From positions 80,127 to 144,126 of the forward strand of contig CAYMAI010000004.1 in NCBI GenBank assembly GCA_964388445.1: a DNA stretch of 64,000 bases. Reading direction: 5' to 3'. Source of the DNA: an uncultured Planctomycetia bacterium (GTDB taxonomy: Bacteria > 4484-113 > JAGGVC01). The notes under the pieces were generated by a model. That model searched no databases, had not been told where the DNA came from, and was given only the letters and a program-made list of their open reading frames with translations. Within the stretch, counting starts at the first letter, position 1. Every line of letters starts with the position of its first letter. Below are positions 16,999-32,006 of the stretch, in pieces. Position numbers and translations under genes: made by a program.

Positions 16999-17014
16999 AA
17001 GCGAGGATTGAAAA

Positions 17015-20000
17015 ATGCTGATTCGATTCGTATTGCGCAACCGCCTGTTGATGGGTGTAATGGGTTTGCTCGTATTCGCCGCCGGCTGGTACAGCTATGA
17101 AGAACTTCCCGTGGACGCCTTTCCGGACGTGACGCCCGCTCTGGTGCAAGTATTTACCGAAACCGAAGGGCTGGCGCCGGAAGAAGTTGAAAAATTCGTC
17201 ACCTATCCCGTTGAATCCGCGATGAACGGACTCCCGAACCTTAAAGAAATTCGTTCGACATCCAACTTCGGGCTATCGGTTGTCAACATCTATTTCGAGG
17301 ACGACACCGATATTTATTTTGCCCGCCAGCTTGTGGGAGAACGGCTTCAACTTGCTCGCGAGGAAATATTCGAAGGTTTCGGCGTGCCGGAAATGGGGCC
17401 GATTGCGACCGGTTTGGGACAGATTCTGTTTTTCGTGGTCGAAGACGAGTCGAAAACCCGGACGCCGGAAGAGCTGAGGGAAATTCAAGACTGGCTAATA
17501 AAGTACAACCTGCAAATCGTACCCGGCGTCACCGAGGTTTTATCGCTCGGCGGAGAGGTTAAGCAATTTCATATACTTGTCAGTCCGGCGAATTTGCTTC
17601 GCTACGGCATTACGATAAGCGATCTCAAAGAAAAAGTGCAAGCAAACAATTCGAATGCCGGCGCGCAATTCCTCGTAATCAATTCCGACGAATACATTGT
17701 GCGATCCGTCGGGTTGGCGGAAAAAATCGCCGACCTTGAAAACATAGTTCTAAAGGTGGAGGACGGAACGCCGGTTTATCTAAGCCAAGTCGCAGAAATT
17801 CGGGTTGGCGGCGAAATCCGGCGCGGACTAGCGACGATGAACGGCGCGGGAGAAGTTGTCGTAGGAATGGTGCTGAAGCTTATCGGAACAAACACATCCC
17901 AAGTAATAACCGACGTCAAGGCGAAACTTAAGGAAATCAACGGCGTTCTCCCCGAAGGCGTAAGCGTTGTTCCATATTACGACCAAGCGACTTTGGTTTC
18001 GAAGTGCATTAAGACGGTTTCCGACGCGTTAATCGGCGGCATATTGCTCGTTGCGGGAATCTTGCTGATTTTTATGGGCGGTTTTCGCGCTAGTCTTGTC
18101 GTTGCGCTTTCGATTCCGTTTTCGGTCATGTTCGCGTTCATCATGATGAAGGCGTTCGGCATAAGCGCAAATTTGATGTCGCTAGGCGGACTCGCGATCG
18201 CCATCGGAATGATGGTGGACGCGACAATCGTAATCGTCGAAAACGTTGACAGAATGATAAGGGAGGCAGAGCCGGGCGATTCAAAAATGTCTATCGTGGC
18301 GAGGGCATGCGCGGAAGTTGAAAGACCGATATTTTTTGCCATAGCGATTATCGTTCTCGTGTTCCTGCCGCTTTTCACGCTTCAAGGAGTCGAAGGAAAA
18401 ACGTTCAGGCCGCTGGCGCATACGGTCGCGCTGGCGATGATAGGGTCGCTCATTTATGCGCTTTTTCTTGCTCCGGTTTTGTCCCAGCTGTTCATGAACC
18501 GGCCGAAAAAACCGGCAAGCGGCAAGCAATCGAAGGAAGTTTGGATTGTGCGGCGGATGTTGATTTTGTATGAGCCGCTTGTACGCGTTTTTGTGCGTCG
18601 CCGGTTTCTGGCTATCGCTCTTTCGGGGCTGCTTTTAGGAGCGGGAGCGCTTGTGGTTCCGCGACTTGGTTCCGAATTCGTCCCGAGACTCGACGAAGGC
18701 GATCTGCTTATTCGCGTGACGATGTCGCCTTCCATATCGCTTGAGGAAGCGCGCGAGACCGTATTGCGTTTTGAAAAACGGCTTATGGCGGCTTTCCCGG
18801 AAGTTGTGCAGATTGTGTCGCGTGTCGGGCGCGGCGAAGTCGGAGCGCATGCAGACCCGGTCAACAACGCGGAATCGTTCGTCTCCTTAAGGCCTAAAAG
18901 CGAATGGAAGAACGCTGAAAATTCCGGAGAGTTATATGAGCAGATAAGCGAAACTTTCGAAACTTTTCCCGGCGCGCAGATCAATGTCACCCAGCCAATC
19001 GCTGCCGCTGTTGACGAACTTCTGACCGGAACGAAAGCGGAACTCGCCATCAAAATCTTCGGCCCCGATATGGACGTTCTGCAAGAACTTGCTGCAAAAG
19101 TGGAAAGCGAAATTGGCGGGCTTCGCGGGGCCTTTGACGTTCAGAAAGACCAAGTTGCAGGTACTCCGCAGCTATTGATTCGAATAGACCGAAAAGCGAT
19201 TGCGCGCTATGGCATCAACGTAGATGACATTCAAAGCATCGTCAGGACGGCGGTGGGCGGCGAAACCGCCGGGAAAATATTCGAGGGCGTAAGGCGGTTC
19301 GACATCGTCGTCCGGCTTGCCGAAAGCGCACGAAACAACGTCGAGAAAATACGCCATATATTAATCGCCGCGCCGGACGGCGCGCTCGTTCCGCTCGACC
19401 AGCTGGCATACATCGAGACAATCGTCGGGCCGAGACAGATTACGAGGGAAAACAATCAGCGCTTCATCGCCGTTCAATGCAACGTTCGCGGCCGGGACAT
19501 CGGAAGCTTTGTCGCGGAAGGCCAAAAAGCAATAGGCGACAAAATACAAATGCCAGCCGGTTATTTTGTCAATTGGGGCGGTCAGTTCGAATTGCAGCAG
19601 GAAGCAAACCGGCGGCTCGCCCTAGTCGTGCCTTTCACGCTTTTGATTATCACGCTGCTTTTGTTTATGAATTTCAATTCGCTCAAAAACACGATACTCA
19701 TACTATTCAATATTCCATTGGCGCTTGTCGGCGGCGTCGTTGCGCTGTTGATCACCGGTCAAAATCTTTCCGTTCCCGCTTCGGTCGGTTTTATAGCCTT
19801 GTTCGGCATAGCGCTAGAAAACGGAATGGTTCTCGTCACCTACTTGAATCAGTTGCTTCTAAGGGGAATTAACGTCGATGAAGCGTCGATCACCGGCGCG
19901 TGCCTTAGACTTAGACCGGTTTTGATGACTGCGGTGACCACCGCTTTGGGACTTATTCCGCTGCTGCTCAGCACTGGAACGGGAAGCGAAGTCCAGCGTC

Positions 20001-20110
20001 CGCTCGCTACCGTGGTTCTCGGCGGCCTCGTGACTTCGACTATACTGACGCTGCTCGTCATTCCGGCGTTATATAAATGGTTTGCAATACAGGTTAACAA
20101 GGAGGCTTGA
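17015..20110 (+). CDS. czcA: heavy-metal RND efflux pump, HME family (CzcA/CusA)
   Basis: 1031 aa with 12-TM RND topology. Motifs are typical of AcrB/CzcA-family transporters. Confidence 0.9.
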   Translation: MLIRFVLRNRLLMGVMGLLVFAAGWYSYEELPVDAFPDVTPALVQVFTETEGLAPEEVEKFVTYPVESAMNGLPNLKEIRSTSNFGLSVVNIYFEDDTDIYFARQLVGERLQLAREEIFEGFGVPEMGPIATGLGQILFFVVEDESKTRTPEELREIQDWLIKYNLQIVPGVTEVLSLGGEVKQFHILVSPANLLRYGITISDLKEKVQANNSNAGAQFLVINSDEYIVRSVGLAEKIADLENIVLKVEDGTPVYLSQVAEIRVGGEIRRGLATMNGAGEVVVGMVLKLIGTNTSQVITDVKAKLKEINGVLPEGVSVVPYYDQATLVSKCIKTVSDALIGGILLVAGILLIFMGGFRASLVVALSIPFSVMFAFIMMKAFGISANLMSLGGLAIAIGMMVDATIVIVENVDRMIREAEPGDSKMSIVARACAEVERPIFFAIAIIVLVFLPLFTLQGVEGKTFRPLAHTVALAMIGSLIYALFLAPVLSQLFMNRPKKPASGKQSKEVWIVRRMLILYEPLVRVFVRRRFLAIALSGLLLGAGALVVPRLGSEFVPRLDEGDLLIRVTMSPSISLEEARETVLRFEKRLMAAFPEVVQIVSRVGRGEVGAHADPVNNAESFVSLRPKSEWKNAENSGELYEQISETFETFPGAQINVTQPIAAAVDELLTGTKAELAIKIFGPDMDVLQELAAKVESEIGGLRGAFDVQKDQVAGTPQLLIRIDRKAIARYGINVDDIQSIVRTAVGGETAGKIFEGVRRFDIVVRLAESARNNVEKIRHILIAAPDGALVPLDQLAYIETIVGPRQITRENNQRFIAVQCNVRGRDIGSFVAEGQKAIGDKIQMPAGYFVNWGGQFELQQEANRRLALVVPFTLLIITLLLFMNFNSLKNTILILFNIPLALVGGVVALLITGQNLSVPASVGFIALFGIALENGMVLVTYLNQLLLRGINVDEASITGACLRLRPVLMTAVTTALGLIPLLLSTGTGSEVQRPLATVVLGGLVTSTILTLLVIPALYKWFAIQVNKEA

Positions 20111-20111
20111 G

Positions 20112-20438
20112 GTGAAGGAAATCAAAGCATACGTGGCGAAACGAAAACTTGGCGCCATTACGAGGGCTCTGCACAAAGTGGAAGGCATCACGGGAATGAG
20201 CGTAATCGACCATTTGGGATACGGCCGGGGATTGGCAGTCGCCGCGGAGCCCGAACTGGACTTTCATCACGGGATAAAGATTGAAATAATTTGCAAAGAC
20301 GAATTGGTCGACACAATCGTCTCCGCCATCGAAAAAGTCGCGCGCACCGGCCTTAAAAGCGACGGGAAAATATACGTTTCGCCGATAGAGCAGGCGATTA
20401 GAATCAGCACCGGCGAGCGCGGGGATGGCGCGATATGA
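20112..20438 (+). CDS. P-II (GlnB-like) family small signal-transduction protein associated with RND operon
   Basis: About 108 aa with a GTG start after AGGAGG. Its size and a GlnB-like pattern (EIKAYV...GITGMSV, GKIYVSPIEQAIRISTGE) fit the P-II family. Confidence 0.55.
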   Translation: MKEIKAYVAKRKLGAITRALHKVEGITGMSVIDHLGYGRGLAVAAEPELDFHHGIKIEIICKDELVDTIVSAIEKVARTGLKSDGKIYVSPIEQAIRISTGERGDGAI

Positions 20439-20580
20439 TTGGTGCGAGGTTTCGCTCGCCGGAATTATTGCGTCATTAATCGCCTCACCGCCGATAATCC
20501 GAGCCAATCACGAAATGCGCTGGCTTAAATCGCCCGCGGATTCGATCGGGCCGAATTCGTCCGCCCGCCGGACGGGACAA

Positions 20581-22281
20581 TCATGGCCTGGATTGGCCGA
20601 ACAGATATCCGATTAGTGCGGCGTCGCGTTCGTCGATGACGCCGTCGCGGTTTCCGTCAAGCGTCGGGAAGAGCGAGGCGGAATTGTTAAAGGAAGGCAT
20701 TACTGTACCGAACCAGAATGCGTAAAGCGCGTCGAGATCCGCAAGGTCGATTTTGTCGTCACCGTTGTAATCGCCGTCGAATACGCGCGTATAAAACGGC
20801 TGGGGCTCGCTTTCGAAAGATTCGTCGCGCCGGTGTGCGCGCACGGTCAGAAACTGCACGTTGTTCGTGAAGTCGTCAGGATTCAGCGTGAACTTGAAGC
20901 CGTTCGCGGGCGTGTCATCCGAGCGGTACACCGCGCCGTTAATCAGGAATTCGACGGATTCCACGTTCGAATTCGTGACGATTTCGATTTCGTAAAGCGA
21001 GCCTTTTTCATACGCCGAGCCGGCAAAGCCTTCCGGGAAATTGAAAAAGACTTCGGTGTCGTTGATATAGGTAATCACATTCGAGGGGTTGACGGAAACT
21101 ATGAGAACGTCGCCTTCAATCCAATCTTCCGTTATGGTCGCTTTCACTTCCGAGGGCGACCACGAGTCGGTTGCAACTTCGAGCGCTGACACGAGAAGCT
21201 GGCCGGATGTGCCGAAGTGTTTGCCAGTTATCGTAATTTGGTTGCCCGTAGAAGCGCGAATCGCCGACGGCGCGGTTATAAGCGGGTCGATTGCAATCGT
21301 CAAAGTGTTAAGCGCATTTCCGCCGATTGTGACGGTTATGATTGACGAGCTTTGAACGGCGTTTATCGGTGGGACGTTTACGGAAATCTGGGTGTCGGAC
21401 CACAAAACTACCTGCGCAGGCGATTCCTCGCCGCCGAACGAAATCGTGCTTGCGCCTTGCGTCGACCCAAGTTTCGAGCCGCTGATGACGAGCGATTCGC
21501 CTTCCGCCGCGTTCGTTTTGTCCGCGCCGGTCAAAAACGGATTGCTGACTTCAAACTCACCGTCCGTCGCAGCGATTGTGCCGTCTATGATGACGAAAAT
21601 CTGGCCCGTAATCGCAAAGTCCGGAACCGCGACGCTTATTTGGGTATTCGTCCAATTGAGGATTTCGGCGGGGATAGTATCGGGGCTTCCGGCAAAATGA
21701 ACTTCGTCTGTCGATTCGTCGAATGTGCCGAAAAACGTACCGGTTATCGTCACGGTGTCGCCGTATTCGCCGGACGACGGCGTGAAGAACGTGACATCCT
21801 GCTCTTGCACGGTATAGGAAAATTCGTTACTGAAAAAGCTCTCTTCGCCGGCGGTATCCACGACGGTTACGCGATAAAAGTATGTCTCGCCGACAATCGG
21901 ATGGCCGCCGGTGAACATCATATCGTCGAAAGTTATCGGGTCGCCGGGCTGTTGCGGAATTGCGATGCCGTCGTTCACGCGAATCGTCACGTCACCCTCG
22001 CGGCCGTCCGCGATGGGGCTTGTATCGCGGTAAAGAAAATATCCCGCGGCGGTGGGCTCGGCAACGCGCGTCCACGTCAGCCGGATGCCGACCGGAAGGC
22101 CAGACGTCGTGCGCCCGAATGGCATAAGTGCAGACAAAATTTTGGGGGGCGAAAGCGCGGCATTGCCGCGTGCGCCTTGTTCAAGCGCGTTCCCGCTTCG
22201 TCCGCCGCATGCGGAAACCGAGAGAACCACCGCCGCCGCAAGCGCCGCAAAAATCGAAAAAGAATAAAACTTCTTTAGCAT
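20581..22281 (-). CDS. FN3/IPT-domain surface lipoprotein with C-terminal type-I dockerin
   Basis: Lipobox (VSAC). The N-terminus is shared with the 22294 gene (GIRLTW...ETYFYRVT). The C-terminus carries DGDYNGDDKIDLADLDALYAFWFG...DGNRDGVIDERDAALIGYLFG, a duplicated dockerin segment. Confidence 0.7.
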   Translation of the reverse strand: MLKKFYSFSIFAALAAAVVLSVSACGGRSGNALEQGARGNAALSPPKILSALMPFGRTTSGLPVGIRLTWTRVAEPTAAGYFLYRDTSPIADGREGDVTIRVNDGIAIPQQPGDPITFDDMMFTGGHPIVGETYFYRVTVVDTAGEESFFSNEFSYTVQEQDVTFFTPSSGEYGDTVTITGTFFGTFDESTDEVHFAGSPDTIPAEILNWTNTQISVAVPDFAITGQIFVIIDGTIAATDGEFEVSNPFLTGADKTNAAEGESLVISGSKLGSTQGASTISFGGEESPAQVVLWSDTQISVNVPPINAVQSSSIITVTIGGNALNTLTIAIDPLITAPSAIRASTGNQITITGKHFGTSGQLLVSALEVATDSWSPSEVKATITEDWIEGDVLIVSVNPSNVITYINDTEVFFNFPEGFAGSAYEKGSLYEIEIVTNSNVESVEFLINGAVYRSDDTPANGFKFTLNPDDFTNNVQFLTVRAHRRDESFESEPQPFYTRVFDGDYNGDDKIDLADLDALYAFWFGTVMPSFNNSASLFPTLDGNRDGVIDERDAALIGYLFGQSRP

Positions 22282-22293
22282 TTTCTACCGCCG

Positions 22294-23919
22294 TTAAATC
22301 TGTCCGCCGCCCGTCAGGTTTGGCGGTGGAAGAACAATCGTAATCGAAGAACCGCTGCTGTCCACGCTCGCCACGCGAACGTACACGCTGCCGGTCTTTG
22401 CCGTGTCGGGGATTTCGATGGTTATCGAGGTTTGACTCCACGATACGTAATCGCCTGCTTGCACCTCGACATCGTCGCCGGTGTCGCCCGGAGTGCCGTT
22501 ATCAAACCAGACCGTGCTGGTGCCGCGTGCCGCGCCGAAGCCGTTGCCCGAAATCACGAGTTGGTCGAGTTTGGTCTTGCGCGCCGAATCGAGGCCGGAA
22601 ATTGACGGCTTGACGTTGAAGTTGAGCGTATTGCTTTCGAGCGTTTCTTCTGCGCTGTCGCCGCTGACGTTCGCCTTGACCGTAACTTTCACCGCGACCT
22701 GTCCGCTGATGCCGCTGGGCACCGTGGCTTGTATTTGCGTGTTGTTCCAACTTGAGACAGTCGCGGCCGCCGCGCCGAATTGAACTGAACTGGTGCCCTG
22801 AGACGCGCCGAACGTGTGTCCGTTAATCGTCACAGACGAGCCGATTTCGCCTTCGCTTACTGAGAGCGAAGTAATCTTCGGCAGCACGTCGAAGCTGGCT
22901 GTATTGCTCGTGTTGTTTCCGGTCGAAACGGTAATTGCGCCGTCGGTAGCGGCGCCGACCGGAACGTTGACTTCGATTTGTGTATTGGTCCAGCTTACGT
23001 AATCGCCGGACGCGGCTTCCTGCGTGCCGAAAAACACTTTGCCGTCCCCCGCCGAGCGGTCGGCTTCGAAGTGGTTTCCGCTTATCGTAATCGTGTCGCC
23101 GACGCGTCCTTGATTGGGGTCAACCGTGGCTATGGACGGGGCTACGACGGTGAAGTCGCCCGTCGATTCAATGATTTGCGCCGCTTCGAGCGTGACCCTC
23201 ACATGACCCGTTACCGCTCCGGTGGGAACGACGACGGAAATGTTGGCATCCGTCCACGAATTGATGTCGGCTTCAATCCATGTGCCGCCGGGTCCGCTGA
23301 ATTCGACTTTGTCGCCCGAATCCTGAGTGCCGAAGCCTTCGCCGAGAACCTCAATGGTATCGAGAATGCTCGCCGATCCCGGATTGAAGCCCGTTATGGA
23401 AGAACCTATGGTTATGGACAACTCGTTGCTTACGTCGGATTCGTCGTCCGTATCGTTGATGTTCGTTACGCGGTAAAAATAGGTTTCTCCCCAAGCGGGA
23501 GGTCCTTCGGCGGGCGGCGAGCCGCCGCCAAAATAGATGTCGTCCCAATCGACTTCGTCGCCGGAGCCGGGATTGGCTATGGAGCTTGCATTTACCTTCT
23601 TGTCCGCGTCGGCAAGCCCGTCGTCCATCGTCTCGACGTCGCGATAAACGTTATAGCCGCCGTCGGCCTCTGCTTGGCGGTCCCAAGTGAGTCTGATACC
23701 TTCCGGCATACCGCTCGCTCCACGGATTATTTCCGCCCGCAGATTCCCGCCGGCGTTCGGATAGGTGGAGCCTGTCGGAAGAAAATCGCCCGGAACAGGC
23801 ATTACGCGCTGGGCGGGTGGCTTGAGATCCTGACTTGATGCGCCGCCGCCGCCGCCGCAAGCGGCGATTAGGATCGCCAGCAAGGAAGCCAAAATAATAA
23901 ATACAATTCCTCTTGTCAT
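22294..23919 (-). CDS. FN3/IPT(TIG)-repeat surface lipoprotein
   Basis: ATG with AAGGGGGA RBS. Lipobox (IAAC). Repeated IPT-like modules (SISGNHF, TINGHTFG, VISGNGFG). C-terminal tail VLPPPNLTGGGQI. Confidence 0.7.
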   Translation of the reverse strand: MTRGIVFIILASLLAILIAACGGGGGASSQDLKPPAQRVMPVPGDFLPTGSTYPNAGGNLRAEIIRGASGMPEGIRLTWDRQAEADGGYNVYRDVETMDDGLADADKKVNASSIANPGSGDEVDWDDIYFGGGSPPAEGPPAWGETYFYRVTNINDTDDESDVSNELSITIGSSITGFNPGSASILDTIEVLGEGFGTQDSGDKVEFSGPGGTWIEADINSWTDANISVVVPTGAVTGHVRVTLEAAQIIESTGDFTVVAPSIATVDPNQGRVGDTITISGNHFEADRSAGDGKVFFGTQEAASGDYVSWTNTQIEVNVPVGAATDGAITVSTGNNTSNTASFDVLPKITSLSVSEGEIGSSVTINGHTFGASQGTSSVQFGAAAATVSSWNNTQIQATVPSGISGQVAVKVTVKANVSGDSAEETLESNTLNFNVKPSISGLDSARKTKLDQLVISGNGFGAARGTSTVWFDNGTPGDTGDDVEVQAGDYVSWSQTSITIEIPDTAKTGSVYVRVASVDSSGSSITIVLPPPNLTGGGQI

Positions 23920-23954
23920 ATCCGTTATCCCCCTTGTAAGGATTAAACAGAACA

Positions 23955-26900
23955 TCAATCAATTTTCCCCGCGCCAGTAAGATTTGGCGGGGGAAGCACA
24001 ACAGTAAATGGACTTTTGTTCGATTCGGTAATCTTGAAAACCCATACGCCGTCCGAAGCATGGCTTTTCGCTCCCGCGGGCACGTCGCAAACGATTTCGT
24101 TGTTGGACCAAGAGGTGACGGTGGATTGCGTGACGTGACCACCCGATCCGTTGTTGAACCTTACTTCGCCCGACCCTTGAGAATCGCCGAAACCGCTGCC
24201 CGAAATGGTTATCGAAACGCCTACAATGCCGCGGTCCGGCGTTGCTCCCGACACGAACGGCCCTTCGTTTTCGACGCTGATATCGTCAATGAAAATTCCT
24301 ACGTCCGATCCCGATGAGCCTCTCGGGTAGAAAAGCACCCTGCCCGAGTGTCCGACGAAAGATGAAAGGGGATTTTCCGCGAGCGTCCAGTCGGCCTGGT
24401 CGATGTTCATCGTGTCGATTTTCGTGTAACCGAGCCAAGTAGTGTAAAAATAAACGTCGAAATAGCGGCTCGACGGGGTGCTCATTTTGTAGTAGTACCT
24501 GAGTATCGGCTCGATTATGTCCTCTCCGGACAAATCAATGGCGTGCCTTCCGCTTGCAGGCGCGATTCCGCGAAACCACGCGTAATCGTTCGGCGTACCT
24601 CCCCATGCGCCGGGCGCGATCCAGCCGAGACATTGCGTTCCGCTGCGCCCGTCGTCCGTAACCAGCTGCCATTGAGGTTGAATCCCGTCGTTTTCCAATA
24701 GCCACTGGTCGTCGATCCCGCTTTCGATGTCGTCGGAAGCGGGATAGTTGTTTTTGGAGTTTTTAAACGCTATCGTGATTTCGGCTTTTTCGCTGGCGAT
24801 GTCGTCGTCGTCGAGAGCGTAAGCCATAACCTTAATCGCAGGATGATTGTCGTCGTTCAGCGTATTGCGGGTATAGCGCCATGGCGCCGCGGTATCGGTG
24901 GAAACGAGCGAGCCGTTCACGTAGAAAAACACTTTTTGAACGCTGCCGTCGTCCGTCGCGTCGACGTCAAAATTCGTACTTCCCGAAACGTCCGCACCGT
25001 CCGCGGGATTCGTGAAAGTCACTTGAGGCGGGTCGCTCGGACATTCGCGGATAACGAAATCGTCGAGGTTCACGCTGGCTGCCGCATGTTCGTCTCCGCG
25101 AAATCTGCCGCCGTACTTAATGGCGAAATATACGCTTTCTCCTTGGAACGCATATGTGCCGCTAAACATTGCCCATGGAGTTGTACTGCCGGAAGTTGTG
25201 GACGGCAAGTATTCGAGCGTTTCCCAAGTGGCGCCCTCGTCCGTGGACGCAAGCAGCATAAGCGCATTCGGTATGCCTCTTTTGTCCCTCATACGATAGA
25301 AAAACTTTATCTGTACCGGCCTGGTAAAGCCCGTGGCGTCTATTCGCTGACTTCGGAGAATCTGATTCGCGGTGAAATTTTGGTTGGAAACCGGTGCCTT
25401 TACGTACGCTTCCTTGCCGCTGCCGAGCGGCGAGGGCGTGCCGGGACTCGTGCGGGTATCCCAAGAAGATTGCGAACCGGAGCCGAAATTTTCGACAAAG
25501 AATCGGATTTCATGGTTGTTGTCTATTTTGCGCCATTTGAAGAAACCACCGTCCTCCGCATCTTCGAAACCGTCAGTAACGGAAGCGGCTCCTGAATTAC
25601 TGACGGTTACGCTTACGACGTCCGTTCCCGCCTGACCTTCTTCGTCCCATGCGCGAGCGGCGATGTTCGAAGTCTTGTTGAAATCGACGAGCGAGTTCCA
25701 TGTGTATGTTTCCGTCGCGCCGGGCGTATCCCAACTCGCGACCATAACGCCGTCGATTAAAAGTTGCAGTTTCGTCACCGCGTTGTCGTCCGAGCAGTCA
25801 ATGCTGACCGTAACGCCGCCGCTCAACGTGCCTCCCGAAGGCTCGGTTATTTCCACCGACGGCGGATTGCTGGTGAACAAAATGAAGTCGGCGGTCATGG
25901 TATCGCCCGCCGCCGAAGTGTCCACGCAATTGATGCCCGGATTCGTGCCGTCGTAAAGGTTCGAATTCGGGGTCGAATCCGGCGTCAATTCGGCACCGTC
26001 CTTATAGAAATCGCCAGCATTCGCTTGCTGACCTTGCTCGATTTCTTCGAGGCCGTCGGCCTCCATCAAGCGAACCAGTTTGTGTTCCGTATAAGAATTG
26101 TCCCACACCAAATAGCCGTCGTTGTCCACTTCGGCGTCGATATGCCAAAGCAAAATGCCGCTTGTCGGATAAGTCGTATCGAGGCCTTGCTTTCGCCTGT
26201 TTTGAGCGATGAAGAACTCCTGCCATGGATTTACCGGGTCGAAACCAGGCATAAAAATCACTGCGTCGCCGTAATCGTTAGATTTTCGCAGCTCATGGTC
26301 TTCTAGATTAGTAAACGCTATTGTCGGCTCCAGCCAGCCGAGGACGAATTTATGAAAGCAATTATGGTCGCCCCAGTTTCCGTGCATCATATCTAGTCCG
26401 CCGACGCCGCCTCGCGGGCCGACGCTGTCGTTGTAATCGTATAGGTCGGGCAAGCCGACGCCGTGACCGGTTTCGTGAATAGTTACGAGCGGGTCCCATC
26501 GCGCGAGTGCGGGCGGAGATTGCGCGAAGCCGTAATATCTCTCCCACTGCCACGAATACGTTTGGAAAGTCACTCCGTCAACTTGCTTCGCTGCTAGTTG
26601 GCTGATTTGCGTCAAATATCCCCACCAAAAAGATGACCATGCGCCTACCGGGCCGGCCCAAATGACCAAGAAATAGTCCACGATGCCGTCGCCGTCGTTG
26701 TCGTATTGCGAAAAGTCTTCGCCGGCCGCGTCCGCCGCTTCTATCGCCTCGAATATCAGAAGTTCACGGCGCAAAGTATCGGATGGATAGCTGCTATTGT
26801 CGTTAGGATGATAATAGGCCCGCGGATTTCGCGCGGTGTACCATCCGTAAACCTGCCCTTCTATCTCCAGCTGTTGATATGACGCCTGCTTGTAATACCA

Positions 26901-27431
26901 AGAAAGACCTCGGTAATAATATGCGGTATCGCCTTCGCCGAAAATGTTCTTTTCGAACTCATCTTTGGCGAAATATGCCGGATAATCCGGAAAATCGATT
27001 ATAAGCGCGAAAGTTTTGCTTGAACCGATCGACGACATCGCCGCAGTATTTCTCGGAGACGGAAAGCCGAGAGAAAGAATGTCCCGTTCATCCACAACCC
27101 TGTCGTGATTGCGGTCGAAGTTCAGCCACGCGAATTCGCGGGATGGGGTCTTGCCTATCGAACTCGGACTCCTGTCCGCGAGCGAGCGTCCGTAGTGTTG
27201 CATTACGCCGTCAGCGAGAGCGTGCGGATTCGAATCACCGCCGCCGCCGCCGCGATTCGCTGCCTGCATTTTGTGGTTGCCGAGTTCTTCCGCTCTTTTC
27301 AAAGCTTCTTCGTAAGTGCCATCGGCTATCATCTCTTCGATCATACCCGGCGGTGGCGGCTGAAGCGCGTGCGCCGGAAGCGCGGTCATGGCGAAAAAAA
27401 TGGCGGCGAAAATGAAAATCGTACTTTTCAT
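23955..27431 (-). CDS. M6 family (immune inhibitor A-like) secreted zinc metalloprotease with C-terminal IPT domain
   Basis: Signal peptide. HETGHGVGLPDLYD zinc-binding motif as in InhA/M6 peptidases. C-terminus ends TVVLPPPNLTGAGKID. Confidence 0.8.
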   Translation of the reverse strand: MKSTIFIFAAIFFAMTALPAHALQPPPPGMIEEMIADGTYEEALKRAEELGNHKMQAANRGGGGGDSNPHALADGVMQHYGRSLADRSPSSIGKTPSREFAWLNFDRNHDRVVDERDILSLGFPSPRNTAAMSSIGSSKTFALIIDFPDYPAYFAKDEFEKNIFGEGDTAYYYRGLSWYYKQASYQQLEIEGQVYGWYTARNPRAYYHPNDNSSYPSDTLRRELLIFEAIEAADAAGEDFSQYDNDGDGIVDYFLVIWAGPVGAWSSFWWGYLTQISQLAAKQVDGVTFQTYSWQWERYYGFAQSPPALARWDPLVTIHETGHGVGLPDLYDYNDSVGPRGGVGGLDMMHGNWGDHNCFHKFVLGWLEPTIAFTNLEDHELRKSNDYGDAVIFMPGFDPVNPWQEFFIAQNRRKQGLDTTYPTSGILLWHIDAEVDNDGYLVWDNSYTEHKLVRLMEADGLEEIEQGQQANAGDFYKDGAELTPDSTPNSNLYDGTNPGINCVDTSAAGDTMTADFILFTSNPPSVEITEPSGGTLSGGVTVSIDCSDDNAVTKLQLLIDGVMVASWDTPGATETYTWNSLVDFNKTSNIAARAWDEEGQAGTDVVSVTVSNSGAASVTDGFEDAEDGGFFKWRKIDNNHEIRFFVENFGSGSQSSWDTRTSPGTPSPLGSGKEAYVKAPVSNQNFTANQILRSQRIDATGFTRPVQIKFFYRMRDKRGIPNALMLLASTDEGATWETLEYLPSTTSGSTTPWAMFSGTYAFQGESVYFAIKYGGRFRGDEHAAASVNLDDFVIRECPSDPPQVTFTNPADGADVSGSTNFDVDATDDGSVQKVFFYVNGSLVSTDTAAPWRYTRNTLNDDNHPAIKVMAYALDDDDIASEKAEITIAFKNSKNNYPASDDIESGIDDQWLLENDGIQPQWQLVTDDGRSGTQCLGWIAPGAWGGTPNDYAWFRGIAPASGRHAIDLSGEDIIEPILRYYYKMSTPSSRYFDVYFYTTWLGYTKIDTMNIDQADWTLAENPLSSFVGHSGRVLFYPRGSSGSDVGIFIDDISVENEGPFVSGATPDRGIVGVSITISGSGFGDSQGSGEVRFNNGSGGHVTQSTVTSWSNNEIVCDVPAGAKSHASDGVWVFKITESNKSPFTVVLPPPNLTGAGKID

Positions 27432-28006
27432 TGCGCCACCGTCCTGTGTTCGAGATCGAAAGAGAGCCGCTCGCGCTTGCCGTTTCGAAGGTGCAAAAAT
27501 TGGGCGTCGTTCAAAAGCCGAACGCGTGGAGCGCCAGCCGGGTCCGCGATAATCCTGAACATGACGCTGAGAATTTCGCCCTTTCCGGCGGGTATGCCGC
27601 GTCCGCCGTTCGTTTGGGTGAATGCGAACGGAACGAATTCCGGGTGGTCCAGCTTGGCGAAAAACACGGCGGAATCGGGAACGGCGCCGCGGGATGCGCG
27701 AACCGGCTGGACGAACCGCCGGTCGTACACAAGCCTGCCGCTCATTTGGTAAAGCTCTTCGGCTAGTTCGAATTTCAGTTGCACGTCGAACTCGTCGCCG
27801 GCGGACATCGCCGCAATATCGGGGGAAACGACGGTAAGCGTATTTCTGTCGGGGGCGGAGGTATCAATCGGCGTTTCGGGTTTCGATGCGGCGGGTTTGC
27901 CCGAAGGACCGCCGTGAAATGCGGACGGCTTGTTGCCCCTTCCGCAGGATATGGCCGCGACAGCCAGCACGGCGGCCGCCAGCACTGCAAACAATGCAAG
28001 CCTCAT
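27428..28006 (-). CDS. small lipoprotein with cohesin-like beta-sandwich domain, translationally coupled to the M6 protease
   Basis: Lipobox (AISC). Its stop overlaps the protease ATG (ATGA). Residues 50-160 resemble the N-terminal domain of the dockerin-lipoprotein paralogs (GDEFDVQLKF...LVYDRRFVQPV...GEILSVMFRI). The cohesin assignment is inferred. Confidence 0.5.
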   Translation of the reverse strand: MRLALFAVLAAAVLAVAAISCGRGNKPSAFHGGPSGKPAASKPETPIDTSAPDRNTLTVVSPDIAAMSAGDEFDVQLKFELAEELYQMSGRLVYDRRFVQPVRASRGAVPDSAVFFAKLDHPEFVPFAFTQTNGGRGIPAGKGEILSVMFRIIADPAGAPRVRLLNDAQFLHLRNGKRERLSFDLEHRTVAQ

Positions 28007-28136
28007 AACTCCTCCGCAATTACCATAAATGGGAAGCGCCCTAAAGAGCGTTTCCCGATTTTAAAATCCCAAAATATTACCTCATAAGGCGTAATCCGCA
28101 ACATAATTGCCGCGTTTTTGCCGATTCGCGGCGCTT

Positions 28137-31100
28137 TCAGTTAATCGGATTCACGCCCTTCAAAACGGGCGGAACAAGCGCCACACCGAAGTAATACCCG
28201 TTGGAATCGTATCCTTGAACATTTACGACCACGTTTCCGCTTACGGCGTCCGCGGGAACGACTACCTCGATGGCGTTGTCGCCCCAGACGTTCACGGCCG
28301 GCGATGTGCGCCCGCCGCCCTCTTTCGCGAACGTAATCGTGCTGGTTTCTTGAAGCGGGCCGAAATAGTTGCCGTTCACGGTGACGGTCTTGCCGGGCGC
28401 GCCTGACGGGTCAACGATGGATGTAATGCGCGCGCCGGCGATGAAAACTTCGTAGTCGTCTATGAACCAGCCCTTCCCGGCGCTTCCGTCCGAATTTGCG
28501 TCGAACTTGAACAGGATTCGGAACTCTCCGCCTTCCGCGAAAGTAAGGTCGAAATACTGCTCCGTCCAATCCGCGATGTCGCTGCGGTATTCGCCGATTA
28601 TCACTTCGGATTCGTCCAGGCCGTCGTACCTGACGAGTACGATGCGCGCCACGTCGCCCGTGCCGAGGTCGAGCTTTTGCGAAAGCCGCAAGAACGGATG
28701 TTCCGCGTCGCCGGGGTCGTGAAACGGACCGTACAGCCTGCCGGACGCGCCGTTACCGTAATCGCTATCGTCTTCGGGACCGAATTTCGCCGAAAAGTCG
28801 CCGTCCGCCGCGGATTCGCCGGTCACGCGCCACATGTCCGCGCCGCCGCCCCAAACGTACCAGTCGCCGTCGAGCGCGCCGCCGGACATTCCGCCGAGCT
28901 CGGCTATATCTTCGAACGAATCGTTCCACCGCGGGTCGCGCGATTCGATGACGGCGTTAAGCGCGACGTACGCCACCTGCATTAGCCCGTCTTCCGCGTC
29001 GCTGTCGAACGCCATAATCGTCAAGAGCGCGCCGCCGGAATAAACATAGCGGGAATCCCAGTCGAAGCTGAATTCCGTGTCCGCCGCCTGCGTGTCGTAC
29101 GCGAGATAACCGCCGAAATCGGGGGGTTGAGCGTAAACTCTAATGCGCTCCACGTTTTCGATTTCAAGCTCGATAGGCACCGCGCCGCTTACGCTTGCGC
29201 CGTTAGCGGGCGAAACGATTTGGATGGACGGCGGCGTGCCTTCCGCGCCGGTGACTTCTACGTCGTCGATCCACATTCCGGGGCCGGAGCCGCTGCTGGC
29301 AATCAGCACCCAATACGCCCTGATTTCACGCCCCGCCCAAGGCGAAAGCGATATGCTGAAATTGTCCCAATCTTGCAGCGTCGTCGAGGTGAAATCCCAA
29401 ATTGCGAGGTTGCGGTCGTCCGTGGTTATGCAGAAATATATCGCTCCGTTCGAACCCATCCGGTAGCGCCGGTCGAACGAAAGCGTTGCGCTCGCCTGAT
29501 TCGTCAAATCTATAACGGGCATGTAAAGCCAGTCGTTGCTGCGCGCCACGTAGTTCGCAGCCGCGCCGCTCGAATGAAGCGATGGCGATTCCGCGCCGAA
29601 TTGCGACGTGTCCGCTCCCCATTTGGTCGAGCCCGTGCCTTTGTTTCCGTCGAAGTGATACCAATCCGTTGGGATTTCGTTATCCGCGACGCCGGTGAAA
29701 TCTTCCTGCAAGGGTATCGCAGCGCGGGCGTTTTCCGGCGTGACGTTTATCGTCGAGCGGGTAATCCTGCCCTCGTCCGTTATTACAATCGCCCGAAGCC
29801 GCATTTCTCTGTTGAATTCGAACGTAGTATCCCAATCGAATTTATAAAATCCTTCGTCGAGAACGTCCGTCGCGCCGAGAAATCGGGTAGGCGTTTCGAA
29901 CTCGACTTTGACGACGTTTCCCGTGCCTCCGCTTATCGAAATGCGGATTTCGGTGTCGCCGGTTACGGTCGCGCCGTCCGCCGGATTGTCCCATTCTATT
30001 TCGTACGCGATTCCCGCGCCGGATTCGTACAGCTCCAGCGCTGCGTTTACGTCAACGAAACGCACCGTGCCGTTGCTGTCGTTGTCCCGAAAGCCGCGAG
30101 GGTTCACGCCGTTGTTCAGCTTTTCCATCGGGCGCGCCGAGCCCTGCAAAAGCTCGCGCACTTGAAGCGCGGTCGGAGTTTCGAACTGCGAAATGTACGC
30201 CCACAGCAGCGCGGCGCAGCCCGCGGTGTATGGCGTGGCAAAGCTCGTGCCCGCCACCGAAGCGACGTATGCGTTATCCGCGGTAATGTGTGTGGTTCTA
30301 ACTTCCACGCCCGGCGCGGCGATGTCGACCCAGTCGCCGTAATTGCTGAAGCCGGCGCGCGCGTCGTAGCGCGTGTCGATAGGCAGAGCGTCGTCCACGA
30401 GCGAAAAGTCCTGGTTGTTCGAATCGTTGACCAGCGTGGTTGCGCCGACCGCGACGCATTCCGGATAGTAGCCGGGATACAGCGGCGCGTCCGTATAGGA
30501 ATTGCCGGCGGCGATTAGAATCAGTTTGCCGTCCTCGTAACACTGCTTAACCGCAAGCTGAATCGTGCGCTCCGGGAACGGGCCGCCGAGCGAGAGGTTT
30601 TGGATGTGCGCGCCGAGGTAGTTGGCAAGCAGCATCCCTTCGGCGACGCCGCTGTAGGTGCCGGAGCCGCCCGAATTTAGCACTTTAATCGGCAGAATCG
30701 TAACCGTGTGGTTGATTCCCGCAAGCCCGAGCCCGTTGTTTCCCACCGCGCCGATGCAGCCCGCAACCATCGTGCCGTGATAATGGTCGTCCATCGGGTC
30801 GTTGTCTTTGTTGACGACGTCGGTAAGCACGCCCGGTTCGTTGTACGGCGGCGTGTCCGCCGGGACTATCATGTTCGCCGCAAGGTCTTGGTGCGTGTAC
30901 CTTACGCCGGTGTCAATGTCCGCGACGATTACGCTTGCGCTGCCCGTTGTTTTATCCCAGGCTTTGCCGTCCACCGCGCCGACGCGCCAGTTTGCCCACG
31001 TGCCGCCCTGCGTGCCGTTTTTGTTGAGGTGCATCGGGTCGTCCGGCGGCGCGCTGACCGTGCGATTCACTTCCTGCGCCGATTCGGGCTTCAGGAAACC

Positions 31101-31796
31101 GGGCAGAAACTTATGACCGGCGGGGCTGTCGCCGGGCTGCGCGGGTTCGCCAGCCGTTTCGTAATAGACGTAGCCGCCGATTGGCGCGAAAACCGAAACG
31201 TAAAAATCGTAGCCGACTTCCGCGACGAGGCCGCGGTTTTCCGTCAGCACTTTCATCATTATCGCGTCGAGCTTGGCGGCGTCGTCGATGTCCTTCGCCT
31301 TGTACGTGACAAAGTTGACGCCGCGGAAAAACACTCTGCGGTCGATTTCGAGCCCGTATTTCGCGGCGAGATTGACGCTTACCATTTTGAAGTACGGGTG
31401 ACTTACGAGCGGGCGATTGTCCTTTTCGAAAGCGGCGTTCGCGCCTTCGCCTTCGGCGTCGCCGCTTAGATATTCTGCAAGCGCCTGAGCGGACGGGGAG
31501 TTTTCGAAAATTACGTTGAATCTGTCCGCCGGAAAGTCAATGCCGGCGCGCGCCGCGAATTTGGGCATCGGGAGAGATTCGCGCGGGCCTGCCAAGTTCG
31601 ACGCGCCTTCGGCGAGAGCCGGAATGCCGGGAATTTCGATTCGCTCTTCCGCCGGGGGGATTTGGAACTTCGCTTCCGCGGGAGCCGCAGGCCCGGAGCG
31701 GGGCTTTTTCCCTCCGCATCCCGCTGCAAAGCATAAAAGCGCCGCAAGCGCGGCAAGCGAAAGCGAAGCGATGAAAAGCGCCTTACTCATACCCAT
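28137..31796 (-). CDS. S8 family subtilisin-like serine protease, large multidomain, C-terminal IPT domain
   Basis: Lipobox (AAGC). Catalytic triad motifs VADIDTG (Asp), HGTMVAG (His) and GTSFATPYTAG (Ser). About 500 aa of C-terminal beta-rich domains. Confidence 0.85.
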   Translation of the reverse strand: MGMSKALFIASLSLAALAALLCFAAGCGGKKPRSGPAAPAEAKFQIPPAEERIEIPGIPALAEGASNLAGPRESLPMPKFAARAGIDFPADRFNVIFENSPSAQALAEYLSGDAEGEGANAAFEKDNRPLVSHPYFKMVSVNLAAKYGLEIDRRVFFRGVNFVTYKAKDIDDAAKLDAIMMKVLTENRGLVAEVGYDFYVSVFAPIGGYVYYETAGEPAQPGDSPAGHKFLPGFLKPESAQEVNRTVSAPPDDPMHLNKNGTQGGTWANWRVGAVDGKAWDKTTGSASVIVADIDTGVRYTHQDLAANMIVPADTPPYNEPGVLTDVVNKDNDPMDDHYHGTMVAGCIGAVGNNGLGLAGINHTVTILPIKVLNSGGSGTYSGVAEGMLLANYLGAHIQNLSLGGPFPERTIQLAVKQCYEDGKLILIAAGNSYTDAPLYPGYYPECVAVGATTLVNDSNNQDFSLVDDALPIDTRYDARAGFSNYGDWVDIAAPGVEVRTTHITADNAYVASVAGTSFATPYTAGCAALLWAYISQFETPTALQVRELLQGSARPMEKLNNGVNPRGFRDNDSNGTVRFVDVNAALELYESGAGIAYEIEWDNPADGATVTGDTEIRISISGGTGNVVKVEFETPTRFLGATDVLDEGFYKFDWDTTFEFNREMRLRAIVITDEGRITRSTINVTPENARAAIPLQEDFTGVADNEIPTDWYHFDGNKGTGSTKWGADTSQFGAESPSLHSSGAAANYVARSNDWLYMPVIDLTNQASATLSFDRRYRMGSNGAIYFCITTDDRNLAIWDFTSTTLQDWDNFSISLSPWAGREIRAYWVLIASSGSGPGMWIDDVEVTGAEGTPPSIQIVSPANGASVSGAVPIELEIENVERIRVYAQPPDFGGYLAYDTQAADTEFSFDWDSRYVYSGGALLTIMAFDSDAEDGLMQVAYVALNAVIESRDPRWNDSFEDIAELGGMSGGALDGDWYVWGGGADMWRVTGESAADGDFSAKFGPEDDSDYGNGASGRLYGPFHDPGDAEHPFLRLSQKLDLGTGDVARIVLVRYDGLDESEVIIGEYRSDIADWTEQYFDLTFAEGGEFRILFKFDANSDGSAGKGWFIDDYEVFIAGARITSIVDPSGAPGKTVTVNGNYFGPLQETSTITFAKEGGGRTSPAVNVWGDNAIEVVVPADAVSGNVVVNVQGYDSNGYYFGVALVPPVLKGVNPIN

Positions 31797-31977: not shown

Positions 31978-32006
31978 TTGACGCAATCATCCCCGCGGCG
32001 TATGCT
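31978..32006 (+). promoter_or_regulatory. candidate sigma70-type promoter (TTGACG-17-TATGCT) upstream of the aminotransferase-pckA operon
   Basis: Hexamers with 17-nt spacing, about 110 nt upstream of the ATG at 32118. Confidence 0.3.

What the first reader, a model, noticed from the sequence alone, without database searches (positions are those of the whole stretch)
20581..22281. Classical C-terminal type-I dockerin on an FN3/IPT lipoprotein at the end of a protease operon
The C-terminus DGDYNGDDKIDLADLDALYAFWFG...DGNRDGVIDERDAALIGYLFG is a textbook duplicated dockerin module. It sits on the last gene of a four- or five-gene minus-strand cluster that also encodes S8 and M6 proteases. Dockerins imply a cognate cohesin partner and a surface-assembled complex. 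Here the cargo would be proteolytic, not cellulolytic.
Basis: partly seen in the sequence, partly recalled or inferred. Interest (0 to 1): 0.65.

Follow-up and report, generated by a model that had tools for sequence, protein, structure and literature searches.

The report
Cohesin–dockerin pair in a protease operon
The dockerin is real, and its likely partner, an unannotated single-cohesin lipoprotein, lies three genes upstream in the same operon, fused by a 4-base overlap to a metalloprotease gene; this looks like a small envelope-anchored protease assembly related to cellulosome parts, and none of it has been tested experimentally.

Summary
Residues 503-557 of the 566-aa protein (window 20611-20775, minus strand) form a two-repeat dockerin. 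Scanned alone it scores 27.4 bits against Pfam Dockerin_1 (cut-off 22.9). Its best PDB match is a cellulosomal dockerin. The gene is the last of five co-oriented genes: S8 protease, a 192-aa lipoprotein, M6 metalloprotease, a TIG lipoprotein, and the TIG-dockerin lipoprotein.

The 192-aa lipoprotein (27428-28006) is a cohesin:
- 9 of 12 family members hit Pfam Cohesin.
- The AF2 model has pLDDT 83.
- All top 50 Foldseek PDB hits are cohesins.

In all 16 related loci with sequence downstream, the cohesin gene is followed by the M6 gene. The M6 N-terminus always carries one invariant dockerin-type calcium loop, and M6 is the only protein of the set without a lipid anchor. A full dockerin recurs in three lineages: on the TIG protein (this window clade and L012/L014) or on the C-terminus of M6 itself (L016).

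"Type I" and "FN3" are not verified. The dockerin here sits on a non-catalytic protein, not on a protease. The closest precedent is the hypothetical "planctosome" of Planctomycetes. I rate this a new variant of a known kind. Binding is inferred, not shown.

The parts
20581..22281 (-). 566-aa lipoprotein (lipobox VSAC). It has an N-terminal FN3-like segment (unverified), three or more TIG/IPT domains, a Big_7-like Ig domain and a C-terminal dockerin.
   Evidence: Pfam TIG 57 bits, Dockerin_1 22.8 bits, Big_7 weak. Orthologues: P0014, P0015 and the L012 619-aa protein (33% identity over 529 aa, E 3e-67). Paralogue of the adjacent TIG gene (37% identity).
20611..20775 (-). Dockerin module, residues 503-557. 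The two calcium-loop repeats lie at 20737-20772 and 20623-20658.
   Evidence: Pfam Dockerin_1 27.4 bits, above the 22.9 cut-off, when scanned alone. PDB best hit is dockerin 2y3n_B, E 5e-4. Pattern scan against shuffles.
22294..23919 (-). 541-aa TIG/IPT lipoprotein (lipobox IAAC). It is a paralogue of the dockerin protein but ends in the tail IVLPPPNLTGGGQI instead of a dockerin.
   Evidence: Pfam TIG 105.6 bits, 4 stretches. Start taken from the gene call in L001. Lipobox. Tail.
23955..27431 (-). 1158-aa M6 (InhA-like) zinc metalloprotease with HETGH, choice-of-anchor J, Big_7 x2, a TIG domain and an LPPPNL tail. Its signal peptide is the signal-peptidase-I type (AHA/LQ); it is the only non-lipoprotein of the five.
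   Evidence: NCBIfam TIGR03296 144.6 bits, above the 110.8 cut-off, and choice_anch_J 33.7 bits, above 30. Pfam. Signal peptides in 14 loci.
27081..27116 (-). Single dockerin-type calcium loop plus helix (FDRNHDRVVDERDILSLG) in the M6 N-terminal pro-region.
   Evidence: Present in the M6 gene of all 16 loci that reach it. D83 N85 D87 D91 E92 R93 D94 L96 L98 G99 are invariant in alignment A4. The only PDB profile hit is a dockerin and is not significant (E 0.57).
27428..28006 (-). 192-aa single-cohesin lipoprotein (lipobox AISC). A disordered linker spans about residues 22-46, followed by a 9-strand cohesin beta-sandwich at residues ~55-190. The stop codon overlaps the M6 start (ATGA). A GGAGGA Shine-Dalgarno sequence precedes the start codon.
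   Evidence: 9 of 12 family members hit Pfam Cohesin (best 1e-6). The profile against PDB gives cohesins as its top 3 hits. AF2 pLDDT 83.1. Foldseek PDB top 50 are all cohesins, best 2xdh at 3.5e-8. Sequence junctions.
28137..31796 (-). 1219-aa S8 subtilase lipoprotein (lipobox AAGC) with choice-of-anchor J, Big_7, a TIG domain and the tail ALVPPVLKGVNPIN. It is the first gene of the cluster.
   Evidence: Pfam Peptidase_S8 135.3 bits. NCBIfam choice_anch_J 40.6 bits. An S8 gene sits upstream of the cohesin gene in L004 and L006 as well.

Best explanation
The five-gene minus-strand operon (28137-31796 down to 20581-22281) encodes a small protease assembly held at the cell envelope. It is built on one cohesin-dockerin pair.

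Proposed mechanism:
1. The 192-aa protein is lipid-anchored through its N-terminal cysteine. It presents a single cohesin domain on a flexible, glycine/proline-rich tether.
2. The 566-aa TIG lipoprotein presents a calcium-dependent, two-repeat dockerin at its C-terminus. The two bind 1:1.
3. This ties the long TIG-repeat stalk protein to the cohesin anchor, next to the S8 lipoprotein and the secreted M6 metalloprotease.
4. M6 has no anchor of its own and is translationally coupled to the cohesin gene. It is probably held in the same assembly, either through its invariant N-terminal dockerin-type calcium loop or through its C-terminal TIG domain and LPPPNL tail.
5. The likely role is degradation of extracellular protein for nutrition.

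Shown here: the identities of the dockerin, cohesin, M6, S8 and TIG modules; the signal-peptide types; and the gene linkage across lineages.

Inferred: that this cohesin binds this dockerin; that binding needs calcium; that the complex is surface-exposed; and how the proteases join it.
For: - Dockerin identity.
- Cohesin identity.
- Both lie in one co-oriented cluster with gaps of 130, -4, 35 and 12 nt.
- Cohesin plus full dockerin co-occur in the same operon in three separate lineages whose cohesins are only about 44% identical. These are the window/L006 clade (TIG-dockerin), L012/L014 (orthologous TIG-dockerin, Dockerin_1 34.5 bits) and L016 (dockerin at the C-terminus of M6, where the other M6 proteins end in the LPPPNL tail).
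- The L016 arrangement is the classical 'anchored cohesin plus dockerin-bearing enzyme' layout.
- Cohesin, TIG and TIG-dockerin proteins carry a signal peptide ending in a lipobox-type cysteine in nearly all loci examined, whereas M6 always has an AxA signal-peptidase-I site.
- No other cohesin or dockerin Pfam hit is found among about 40 other ORFs of the window.
- Similar protease-bearing cohesin/dockerin complexes have been proposed from genomes of Planctomycetes (PMC6461901) and Cloacimonadota (PMC8542988).
Against:
- Both proposed partners are already lipoproteins, so the pair is not needed for anchoring in this window.
- A clade with the same, well-conserved cohesin (L003, L007, L010) has no full dockerin within 10 kb. 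The cohesin must therefore have a function that does not require an operon-encoded dockerin.
- The window's own cohesin gives no Pfam hit; its assignment rests on family members and on the predicted fold.
- Many dockerin-like modules occur in genomes without cohesins (own knowledge of Peer et al. 2009; that paper was not held).
Confidence: 0.55

Rival explanations
1. The cohesin's conserved ligand is the M6 metalloprotease, not the 566-aa protein. The lipid-anchored cohesin binds the N-terminal pro-region of M6 through its single dockerin-type calcium loop and helix. This tethers, and perhaps latches, the only unanchored protein of the operon. The full dockerin on the TIG protein would then be a later addition, which either competes for the same site or binds elsewhere. 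This reading is not exclusive of the main explanation.
For: - The cohesin gene is followed by the M6 gene in 16 of 16 loci with downstream sequence; in this window the two genes overlap by 4 nt (ATGA).
- The calcium loop DxNxDxxxDERDxLxLG is the most conserved stretch of the M6 N-terminus, with 10 invariant positions.
- M6 never has a lipobox, whereas the other proteins do.
- The L003/L007/L010 clade keeps cohesin and M6 but has no full dockerin nearby.
- In this window the M6 loop (VVDERDILSLGF) closely resembles dockerin repeat 2 (VIDERDAALIGY).
- Both M6 and S8 carry a 'choice-of-anchor J' domain, a family named for its variable anchoring devices.
Against: - To my knowledge a single repeat is not known to fold or bind as a dockerin.
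- The profile of the M6 N-terminus hits a dockerin only at E 0.57, and Pfam gives nothing.
- The loop could simply be a structural calcium site of a propeptide that is removed on activation.
- Gene adjacency also fits a chaperone or inhibitor role, or mere co-expression.
- The DERD resemblance to repeat 2 is absent in L012 and L016, whose dockerins read TEAD.
Confidence: 0.25
2. The dockerin works without any cohesin. It would be a calcium-stabilised terminal module that binds something else, such as glycan, S-layer or another envelope protein. The neighbouring cohesin-fold protein would have an unrelated role.
For: - Dockerin-like modules are widespread outside cellulosomes, often without detectable cohesins (own knowledge of Peer et al. 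2009, cited in PMC6461901 and PMC8542988).
- The window's cohesin is very divergent, with no Pfam hit of its own.
- Both proteins are already membrane-anchored.
Against: - Cohesin and full dockerin recur in one operon in three lineages. In one of them the dockerin sits on a different protein of the same operon, M6 in L016.
- This cohesin family is rare: 34 clusters at E<=1e-30 among 1.84 billion representatives. Chance adjacency is therefore unlikely.
Confidence: 0.15
3. The 'dockerin' is a chance pair of EF-hand-like motifs in a low-complexity Asp/Gly-rich tail and has no modular identity.
For: The whole-protein Pfam score is 0.1 bit below the gathering threshold. The precomputed Pfam annotation of this exact protein lists only TIG.
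Against: - The isolated module passes the threshold.
- Solved dockerins are the best PDB hits.
- Both repeats are conserved in orthologues down to 33% identity.
- The motif count is 5 against 0.025 expected.
Confidence: 0.03

Closest known systems
Cellulosomal cohesin-dockerin pairs of Firmicutes (for example Clostridium thermocellum OlpC/SdbA-type single-cohesin anchoring proteins with dockerin-bearing partners)
   Same: - A two-repeat calcium-loop dockerin at a C-terminus.
- A nine-strand cohesin beta-sandwich.
- A cell-bound protein with one cohesin that would hold a dockerin-bearing partner.
- The top structural matches are these very cohesins, and the top sequence matches are these dockerins.
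   Different: - Anchoring is by an N-terminal lipid rather than SLH domains or sortase.
- The host lineage appears to be Gram-negative: an OEP/RND efflux system lies next door, and relatives are annotated as Planctomycetales MAGs.
- There are no glycoside hydrolases and no multi-cohesin scaffoldin.
- The neighbours are S8 and M6 proteases.
- The dockerin is on a non-catalytic TIG lipoprotein.
- Partner and anchor are encoded in one operon.
- Sequence identity to solved cohesins is only 9-18%.
[quoted passage not shown]
   Same: 2xdh is the best structural match of the cohesin model (E 3.5e-8). In both cases single cohesin and dockerin modules occur in an organism with no cellulosome.
   Different: The domain of life and the protein contexts differ. 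Here the pair is operon-linked to proteases and lipid-anchored.
The hypothetical 'planctosome' of freshwater Planctomycetes (Andrei et al. 2019, PMC6461901) and the protease-bearing cellulosome-like complex proposed for Ca. Stygibacter, Cloacimonadota (PMC8542988)
   Same: - The idea is the same: cohesin-dockerin assembly of peptidases at the surface of a non-Firmicute.
- Both rest on genomic inference only.
- Relatives of this locus are annotated as Planctomycetales MAGs.
   Different: - The planctosome model uses a 2,210-aa anchoring protein with an LTD domain, an adaptor carrying both a dockerin and a cohesin, and M12B/M14 peptidases.
- Stygibacter has a 3,755-aa multi-cohesin scaffoldin and dockerins on the S8 and C25 enzymes themselves.
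- Here there is a 192-aa single-cohesin lipoprotein, translationally coupled to an M6 peptidase, with the dockerin on a TIG lipoprotein (or on M6 in L016).
Dentilisin (PrtP-PrcA-PrcB) surface protease complex of Treponema denticola
   Same: An S8 subtilase lipoprotein is encoded in an operon with accessory lipoproteins that form an envelope protease complex. The S8 protein here gives a sub-threshold NCBIfam match to PrtP (78 bits against a cut-off of 300).
   Different: Dentilisin has no cohesin-dockerin modules. The match reflects only the shared S8 catalytic domain. This is a functional analogy, not membership.

Membership tests
Dockerin (Pfam PF00404 Dockerin_1) | Two tandem ~22-residue segments, each a 12-residue calcium loop (D1, D/N3, D/N5, D/N9, D12) followed by a helix, joined by a short linker | tested here: met
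   DYNGDDKIDLAD plus helix, a 16-aa linker, then DGNRDGVIDERD plus helix. The regex finds both repeats. The motif is far above the shuffle expectation.
Dockerin (Pfam PF00404 Dockerin_1) | Profile score at or above the curated gathering score (22.9 bits) | tested here: met
   27.4 bits for the isolated module. The whole protein scores 22.8 bits, 0.1 bit short. The L012 orthologue scores 34.5 bits.
Dockerin (Pfam PF00404 Dockerin_1) | Dockerin fold (a pair of calcium-bound helix-loop-helix motifs) | tested here: inconclusive
   The AF2 model of the full protein, built on a 3-sequence alignment, failed (mean pLDDT 33). Its helices at 513-530 and 551-560 are in the expected places but are not trustworthy.
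Dockerin (Pfam PF00404 Dockerin_1) | Calcium-dependent binding to a cohesin | not testable with these tools
A biochemical test is needed.
Type I dockerin (as opposed to type II or III) | Phylogenetic and recognition-residue grouping with type I pairs; no X-module; binds a type I cohesin | tested here: inconclusive
   The best PDB hit, 2y3n_B, comes from a complex with a type II cohesin. The cohesin model matches type I, type II and non-cellulosomal cohesins about equally. Positions 10-11 differ between the repeats (LA against ER), so the symmetric dual-binding signature is absent (read from the sequence).
Cohesin (Pfam PF00963) | Profile match to the cohesin family | tested here: inconclusive
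   The window protein itself gives no hit at E<=1. Nine of its 12 family members do hit (best 1e-6). The family profile against PDB returns only cohesins, with E-values of 0.023-0.86.
Cohesin (Pfam PF00963) | Nine-stranded flattened beta-sandwich (jelly-roll) fold | tested here: met
   The AF2 model has pLDDT 83.1, and mostly 88-97 per 10-residue block across the domain, with nine strands. All top 50 Foldseek PDB hits are cohesins, with probability 1.00 and target-normalised TM-scores (TMt) up to 0.75.
Cohesin (Pfam PF00963) | Binds a dockerin | not testable with these tools
   Only gene linkage is available.
Peptidase M6 (InhA-like) | M6 catalytic domain profile above the cut-off, and an HExxH zinc motif | tested here: met
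   TIGR03296 scores 144.6 bits, above the 110.8 cut-off. HETGH is present.
Peptidase S8 (subtilase) | S8 profile and Asp/His/Ser triad motifs | tested here: met
   PF00082 scores 135.3 bits. The motifs DTG, HGT and GTSFATP are visible in the translation.
Fibronectin type III domain (N-terminus of the 566-aa protein) | Profile match to fn3, or an FN3 fold | tested here: not met
   There is no Pfam hit on the isolated segment at E<=0.05. A profile of seven paralogues against PDB gives nothing significant (best E 0.1). Only the 'YFYRVTVVD..GEES' signature suggests FN3. True fn3 hits in other genes of the window show that the model does work here.
Bacterial lipoprotein | Signal peptide ending in a lipobox [LVI][ASTVI][GAS]C | tested here: met
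   VSAC (dockerin protein), IAAC (TIG), AISC (cohesin), AAGC (S8). M6 has AHA/LQ and no cysteine. This is a pattern-level test only; no dedicated predictor was available.

The most novel reading that the evidence does not exclude
The core of the system is not a classical cohesin-dockerin pair. It is a minimal 'cohesin plus half-dockerin' latch. A 190-aa lipid-anchored cohesin, always translationally coupled to an M6 metalloprotease, would bind the single invariant calcium loop and helix in the protease's N-terminal pro-region. This would hold the zymogen on the envelope until propeptide cleavage releases it, or until a full dockerin (on the TIG protein, or on the M6 C-terminus in L016) displaces it. 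That would be a new binding mode for cohesins. It would also be a new way to couple anchoring to protease latency. The conserved C-terminal 'VLPPPNLxGxxQY' tails would be a second, still undescribed assembly signal.
Probability: 0.2. Interest if true: 0.75.

Novelty: new variant of a known kind. Interest (0 to 1): 0.52.

Why it matters
Cohesin-dockerin pairs are the best-understood high-affinity assembly device of bacterial surfaces, but almost all experimental work is on plant-cell-wall degradation in Firmicutes.

This locus offers a compact test case outside that setting. It has one cohesin and one dockerin in one operon, with two large proteases, in a lineage whose relatives are annotated as Planctomycetales MAGs. 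The 'proteolytic cellulosome-like complex' idea (planctosome, Stygibacter) has never been tested. Here it could be tested with two small recombinant domains.

Standard annotation misses both modules in this genome. The cohesin has no Pfam hit and the dockerin falls 0.1 bit below threshold. Genome surveys that count cohesins and dockerins therefore probably undercount such systems.

The obligate cohesin-M6 coupling and the invariant single calcium loop raise a specific question: what is the smallest unit a cohesin can recognise?

Tried and rejected
1. AF2 co-fold of a cohesin-(G4S)6-dockerin fusion.
2. AF2 of the full 566-aa protein with its three orthologues. Mean pLDDT was 33, so the model is unusable and says nothing on the FN3 or dockerin fold.
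3. Homologue search with the first 150 residues of M6, to build a deep alignment of the pro-region. No hits were scored, so no structure could be predicted for the half-dockerin.
4. FN3 tests on the N-terminal segment. Pfam on the isolated segment and a seven-paralogue profile against the PDB were both negative.
5. The idea that the 603-aa lipoprotein (11672-13483) also starts with a cohesin. hhalign against the cohesin family matched only the signal peptide, and the PDB search found only Big_2-like hits. Rejected.
6. A third dockerin-like loop in the S8 protease (30051-30086, RDNDSNGTVRFVD). It is not conserved in the L004 S8 orthologue, where the key Asp residues are replaced. I treat it as probably part of the subtilase fold and not a docking element.
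7. Promoter and terminator scan of 20000-32400. Counts were at or below the shuffle expectation, so it says nothing on operon boundaries.
8. The ~280-aa genes upstream of the cohesin gene in L003/L007/L008/L016. They have no counterpart in the window, and only the L003 and L007 proteins resemble each other. They are not part of the conserved core.
9. Other dead ends:
   - The contig look-up for P0015 found nothing on record.
   - Peer et al. 2009 is not held in the library.
   - Public sources give no names for any of the operon proteins.
Full report
**1. The observation**

The ORF at 20581-22281 on the minus strand encodes 566 residues.
- Its C-terminus reads FDGDYNGDDKIDLADLDALYAFWFG, then a 16-residue linker, then LDGNRDGVIDERDAALIGYLFGQSRP. 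Each half has the 12-residue calcium loop with acidic or amide residues at positions 1, 3, 5, 9 and 12, followed by a helix. This is the dockerin repeat.
- Pfam Dockerin_1 scores 22.8 bits on the whole protein, 0.1 bit below the gathering score. On the isolated 74-residue module it scores 27.4 bits, E 3.8e-6.
- A phmmer search of the PDB puts the Cel48 dockerin 2y3n_B first (E 5e-4). Other solved dockerins (2jnk/2ozn, 2yik, 4fl4_A, 2vn5_B, 5lxv_B) follow at weaker E-values, mixed with EF-hand and other proteins.
- A strict calcium-loop pattern occurs five times in the six-frame translation of the 64-kb window. The mean in 200 shuffles is 0.025, and a paired occurrence never appeared in the shuffles.
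- The module is conserved in orthologues of 85% and 73% identity. It is also conserved in a 33%-identical full-length orthologue from a distant locus, where Dockerin_1 scores 34.5 bits.

**2. The rest of the protein**
- The N-terminus has a signal peptide ending in a lipobox (LSVSAC).
- Pfam calls three TIG/IPT stretches and a weak Big_7 Ig domain before the dockerin.
- The 'FN3' label is not verified. The isolated N-terminal segment gets no Pfam hit. A profile of seven paralogous segments finds nothing significant in the PDB. The fn3 model does fire on two other genes of the window.
- An AF2 model of the whole protein failed (pLDDT 33).
- 'Type I' is also unverified. The best dockerin hit belongs to a complex with a type II cohesin. 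The two repeats differ at recognition positions 10-11 (Leu-Ala against Glu-Arg).

**3. The operon**

Five co-oriented genes lie between a divergent aminotransferase gene and a convergent P-II/RND efflux cluster.

| Gene | Coordinates (-) | Features |
|---|---|---|
| S8 subtilase | 28137-31796 | 1219 aa, lipobox |
| 192-aa protein | 27428-28006 | lipobox |
| M6 metalloprotease | 23955-27431 | 1158 aa; TIGR03296 144.6 bits, above cut-off; HETGH |
| TIG protein | 22294-23919 | 541 aa, lipobox |
| TIG-dockerin protein | 20581-22281 | 566 aa, lipobox |

- The gaps between successive genes are 130, -4 (ATGA overlap), 35 and 12 nt.
- The two TIG proteins are paralogues (37% identity).
- Both proteases carry a 'choice-of-anchor J' domain above threshold.

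**4. The missed partner**

The 192-aa protein has no Pfam hit of its own.
- Four of its eleven homologues carry a precomputed Cohesin hit. Nine of the twelve family members (the query included) hit PF00963 when scanned (best 1e-6).
- The family profile finds only cohesins in the PDB (1g1k, 2vn5, 4uyp).
- An AF2 model built on the 12-sequence alignment has mean pLDDT 83, and mostly 88-97 per 10-residue block across the domain. It shows a nine-strand sandwich after a disordered tether.
- All of the top 50 Foldseek hits in the PDB are cohesins. The best is the non-cellulosomal cohesin of Archaeoglobus fulgidus, 2xdh (E 3.5e-8).

No other cohesin or dockerin hit was found in about 40 other ORFs of the window.

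**5. Comparative evidence**

Exact-protein look-ups, one genome scan and one metagenome scan gave 19 related loci. The named relatives are Planctomycetales MAGs.
- In all 16 loci that extend past the cohesin gene, the next gene is the M6 protease. Its N-terminal region always contains a single calcium loop plus helix, D-x-N-x-D-x-x-x-D-E-R-D-x-L-x-L-G. Ten of these positions are invariant in an alignment whose members share 39-79% identity with the window sequence.
- Cohesin, TIG and TIG-dockerin proteins carry a signal peptide ending in a lipobox-type cysteine in nearly all loci examined. M6 always has an AxA signal-peptidase-I site and a conserved mature N-terminus, QPPxPGM.
- A full two-repeat dockerin recurs in three lineages. 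It is on the last TIG protein in the window/L006 clade and in L012/L014; these proteins are orthologues. In L016 it is on the C-terminus of M6 itself, where the other M6 proteins end in the LPPPNL tail.
- The L003/L007/L010 clade has cohesin-M6-TIG and no full dockerin within 10 kb.
- The cohesin family is rare. It has 34 clusters at E<=1e-30 and 247 at E<=1e-3 among 1.84 billion representatives. The close members are all about 190-215 aa.

**6. Interpretation**

The most economical reading is a lipid-anchored single cohesin that binds the operon's dockerin 1:1. This builds an envelope-bound assembly that includes the TIG stalk proteins and the two proteases.
- The L016 arrangement (cohesin lipoprotein plus dockerin-tailed M6) is the textbook anchor-plus-enzyme layout. 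It shows that the dockerin and the protease belong to the same functional unit.
- In this window the dockerin is on a non-catalytic lipoprotein. How the proteases join is therefore inferred.
- One strong alternative, which is not exclusive, is that the cohesin's universal ligand is the M6 pro-region with its single dockerin-type loop. It has perfect linkage, M6 lacks an anchor, and the cohesin stays conserved in the clade without a dockerin. Against it, a single repeat has no precedent as a cohesin ligand to my knowledge, and the similarity to dockerins is not statistically significant (E 0.57).
- A cohesin-independent role for the dockerin is possible. It is disfavoured by the recurrent co-occurrence with a rare cohesin family.

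**7. Relation to what is known**
- The modules are members of the dockerin and cohesin families; the feature-by-feature results are in the membership table.
- The system resembles single-cohesin anchoring proteins of cellulosomes. It differs in its lipid anchor, apparently Gram-negative host, protease neighbours, one-operon encoding and lack of any scaffoldin.
- The concept of protease-bearing cohesin-dockerin complexes has been proposed from genomes as the 'planctosome' (PMC6461901) and in Ca. Stygibacter (PMC8542988). Those have different architectures and no experiments.
- No paper in the library links dockerins with M6/InhA peptidases.
- I therefore rate it a new variant of a known kind, of moderate interest.

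**8. Limits**
- No binding, localisation or expression data exist.
- Taxonomy is inferred from relatives.
- Only 64 kb of the genome was available for the cohesin and dockerin census.
- Lipoprotein calls rest on pattern matching.
- The shuffle control preserves only base composition.

Noticed in passing
window 22315-22332 and 23979-23996 (-), also the S8 C-terminus near 28140-28180 (-); L003, L004, L006, L007, L010, L012: S8, M6 and the 541-aa TIG protein all end, right after their last TIG domain, in a short conserved tail: V-L-P-P-P-N-L-x-G-x-x-(Q/K)-(I/Y/D)-stop (S8: VALVPPVLKGVNPIN). The tail is conserved in relatives (for example VILPPPNLQGGEQY, LVLPPPNLVDLDQY). The L016 M6 protein ends in a dockerin where the other M6 proteins carry this tail. 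No transmembrane segment follows it, so it does not look like an exosortase- or sortase-type signal. It may be a second assembly or sorting peptide. Its function is unknown.
   Followed up: partly
window 11672-13483 (+): A 603-aa putative lipoprotein with no significant Pfam hit. It carries two tandem variant calcium-loop repeats, DGDNSGEVGIPDITPIALNYL and DYDANGEIGVPDITPIAIRYL, 35 residues apart, followed by a weak Big_2-like region. The same 'D-x-TPI' double repeat occurs in PKD-domain proteins next to the cohesin gene in L016/L017 (835 aa) and near it in L008/L013 (1132 aa). Dockerin_1 does not call it. It could be a divergent dockerin class and a further cohesin ligand.
   Followed up: partly
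window 30051-30086 (-): A calcium-loop-like motif, RDNDSNGTVRFVDVNAAL, lies just after the S8 catalytic domain. It is conserved in the close clade only; in the L004 orthologue the key Asp residues are replaced. It is probably a subtilase structural element rather than a docking repeat.
   Followed up: yes
window 37995-41060 (-): A 1021-aa protein combines a SIR2_2 (SIR2-like) domain at residues 185-301 with a long TPR array. This combination is reminiscent of SIR2-type NADase defence or signalling proteins.
   Followed up: no
window 59029-59592 (-): An IS200/Y1-type transposase fragment or gene (Y1_Tnp, 33.9 bits) lies next to a class II tRNA-synthetase-like gene.
   Followed up: no
window 47833-49899 (+), 52803-55205 (+), 50316-52607 (-): Two large secreted-looking proteins have true fn3 domains; one is fused to an AhpC/TSA-thioredoxin domain and a PKD-like domain. 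A 763-aa ORF with no Pfam hit lies in a low-GC stretch (GC 0.46 at 50-52 kb, against about 0.56 elsewhere).
   Followed up: no
window 14270-20438 (+): An OEP - HlyD/CusB-type membrane-fusion protein - AcrB-type RND efflux operon is followed by a P-II protein gene, convergent with the dockerin gene. It supports a diderm (outer-membrane-bearing) host.
   Followed up: no
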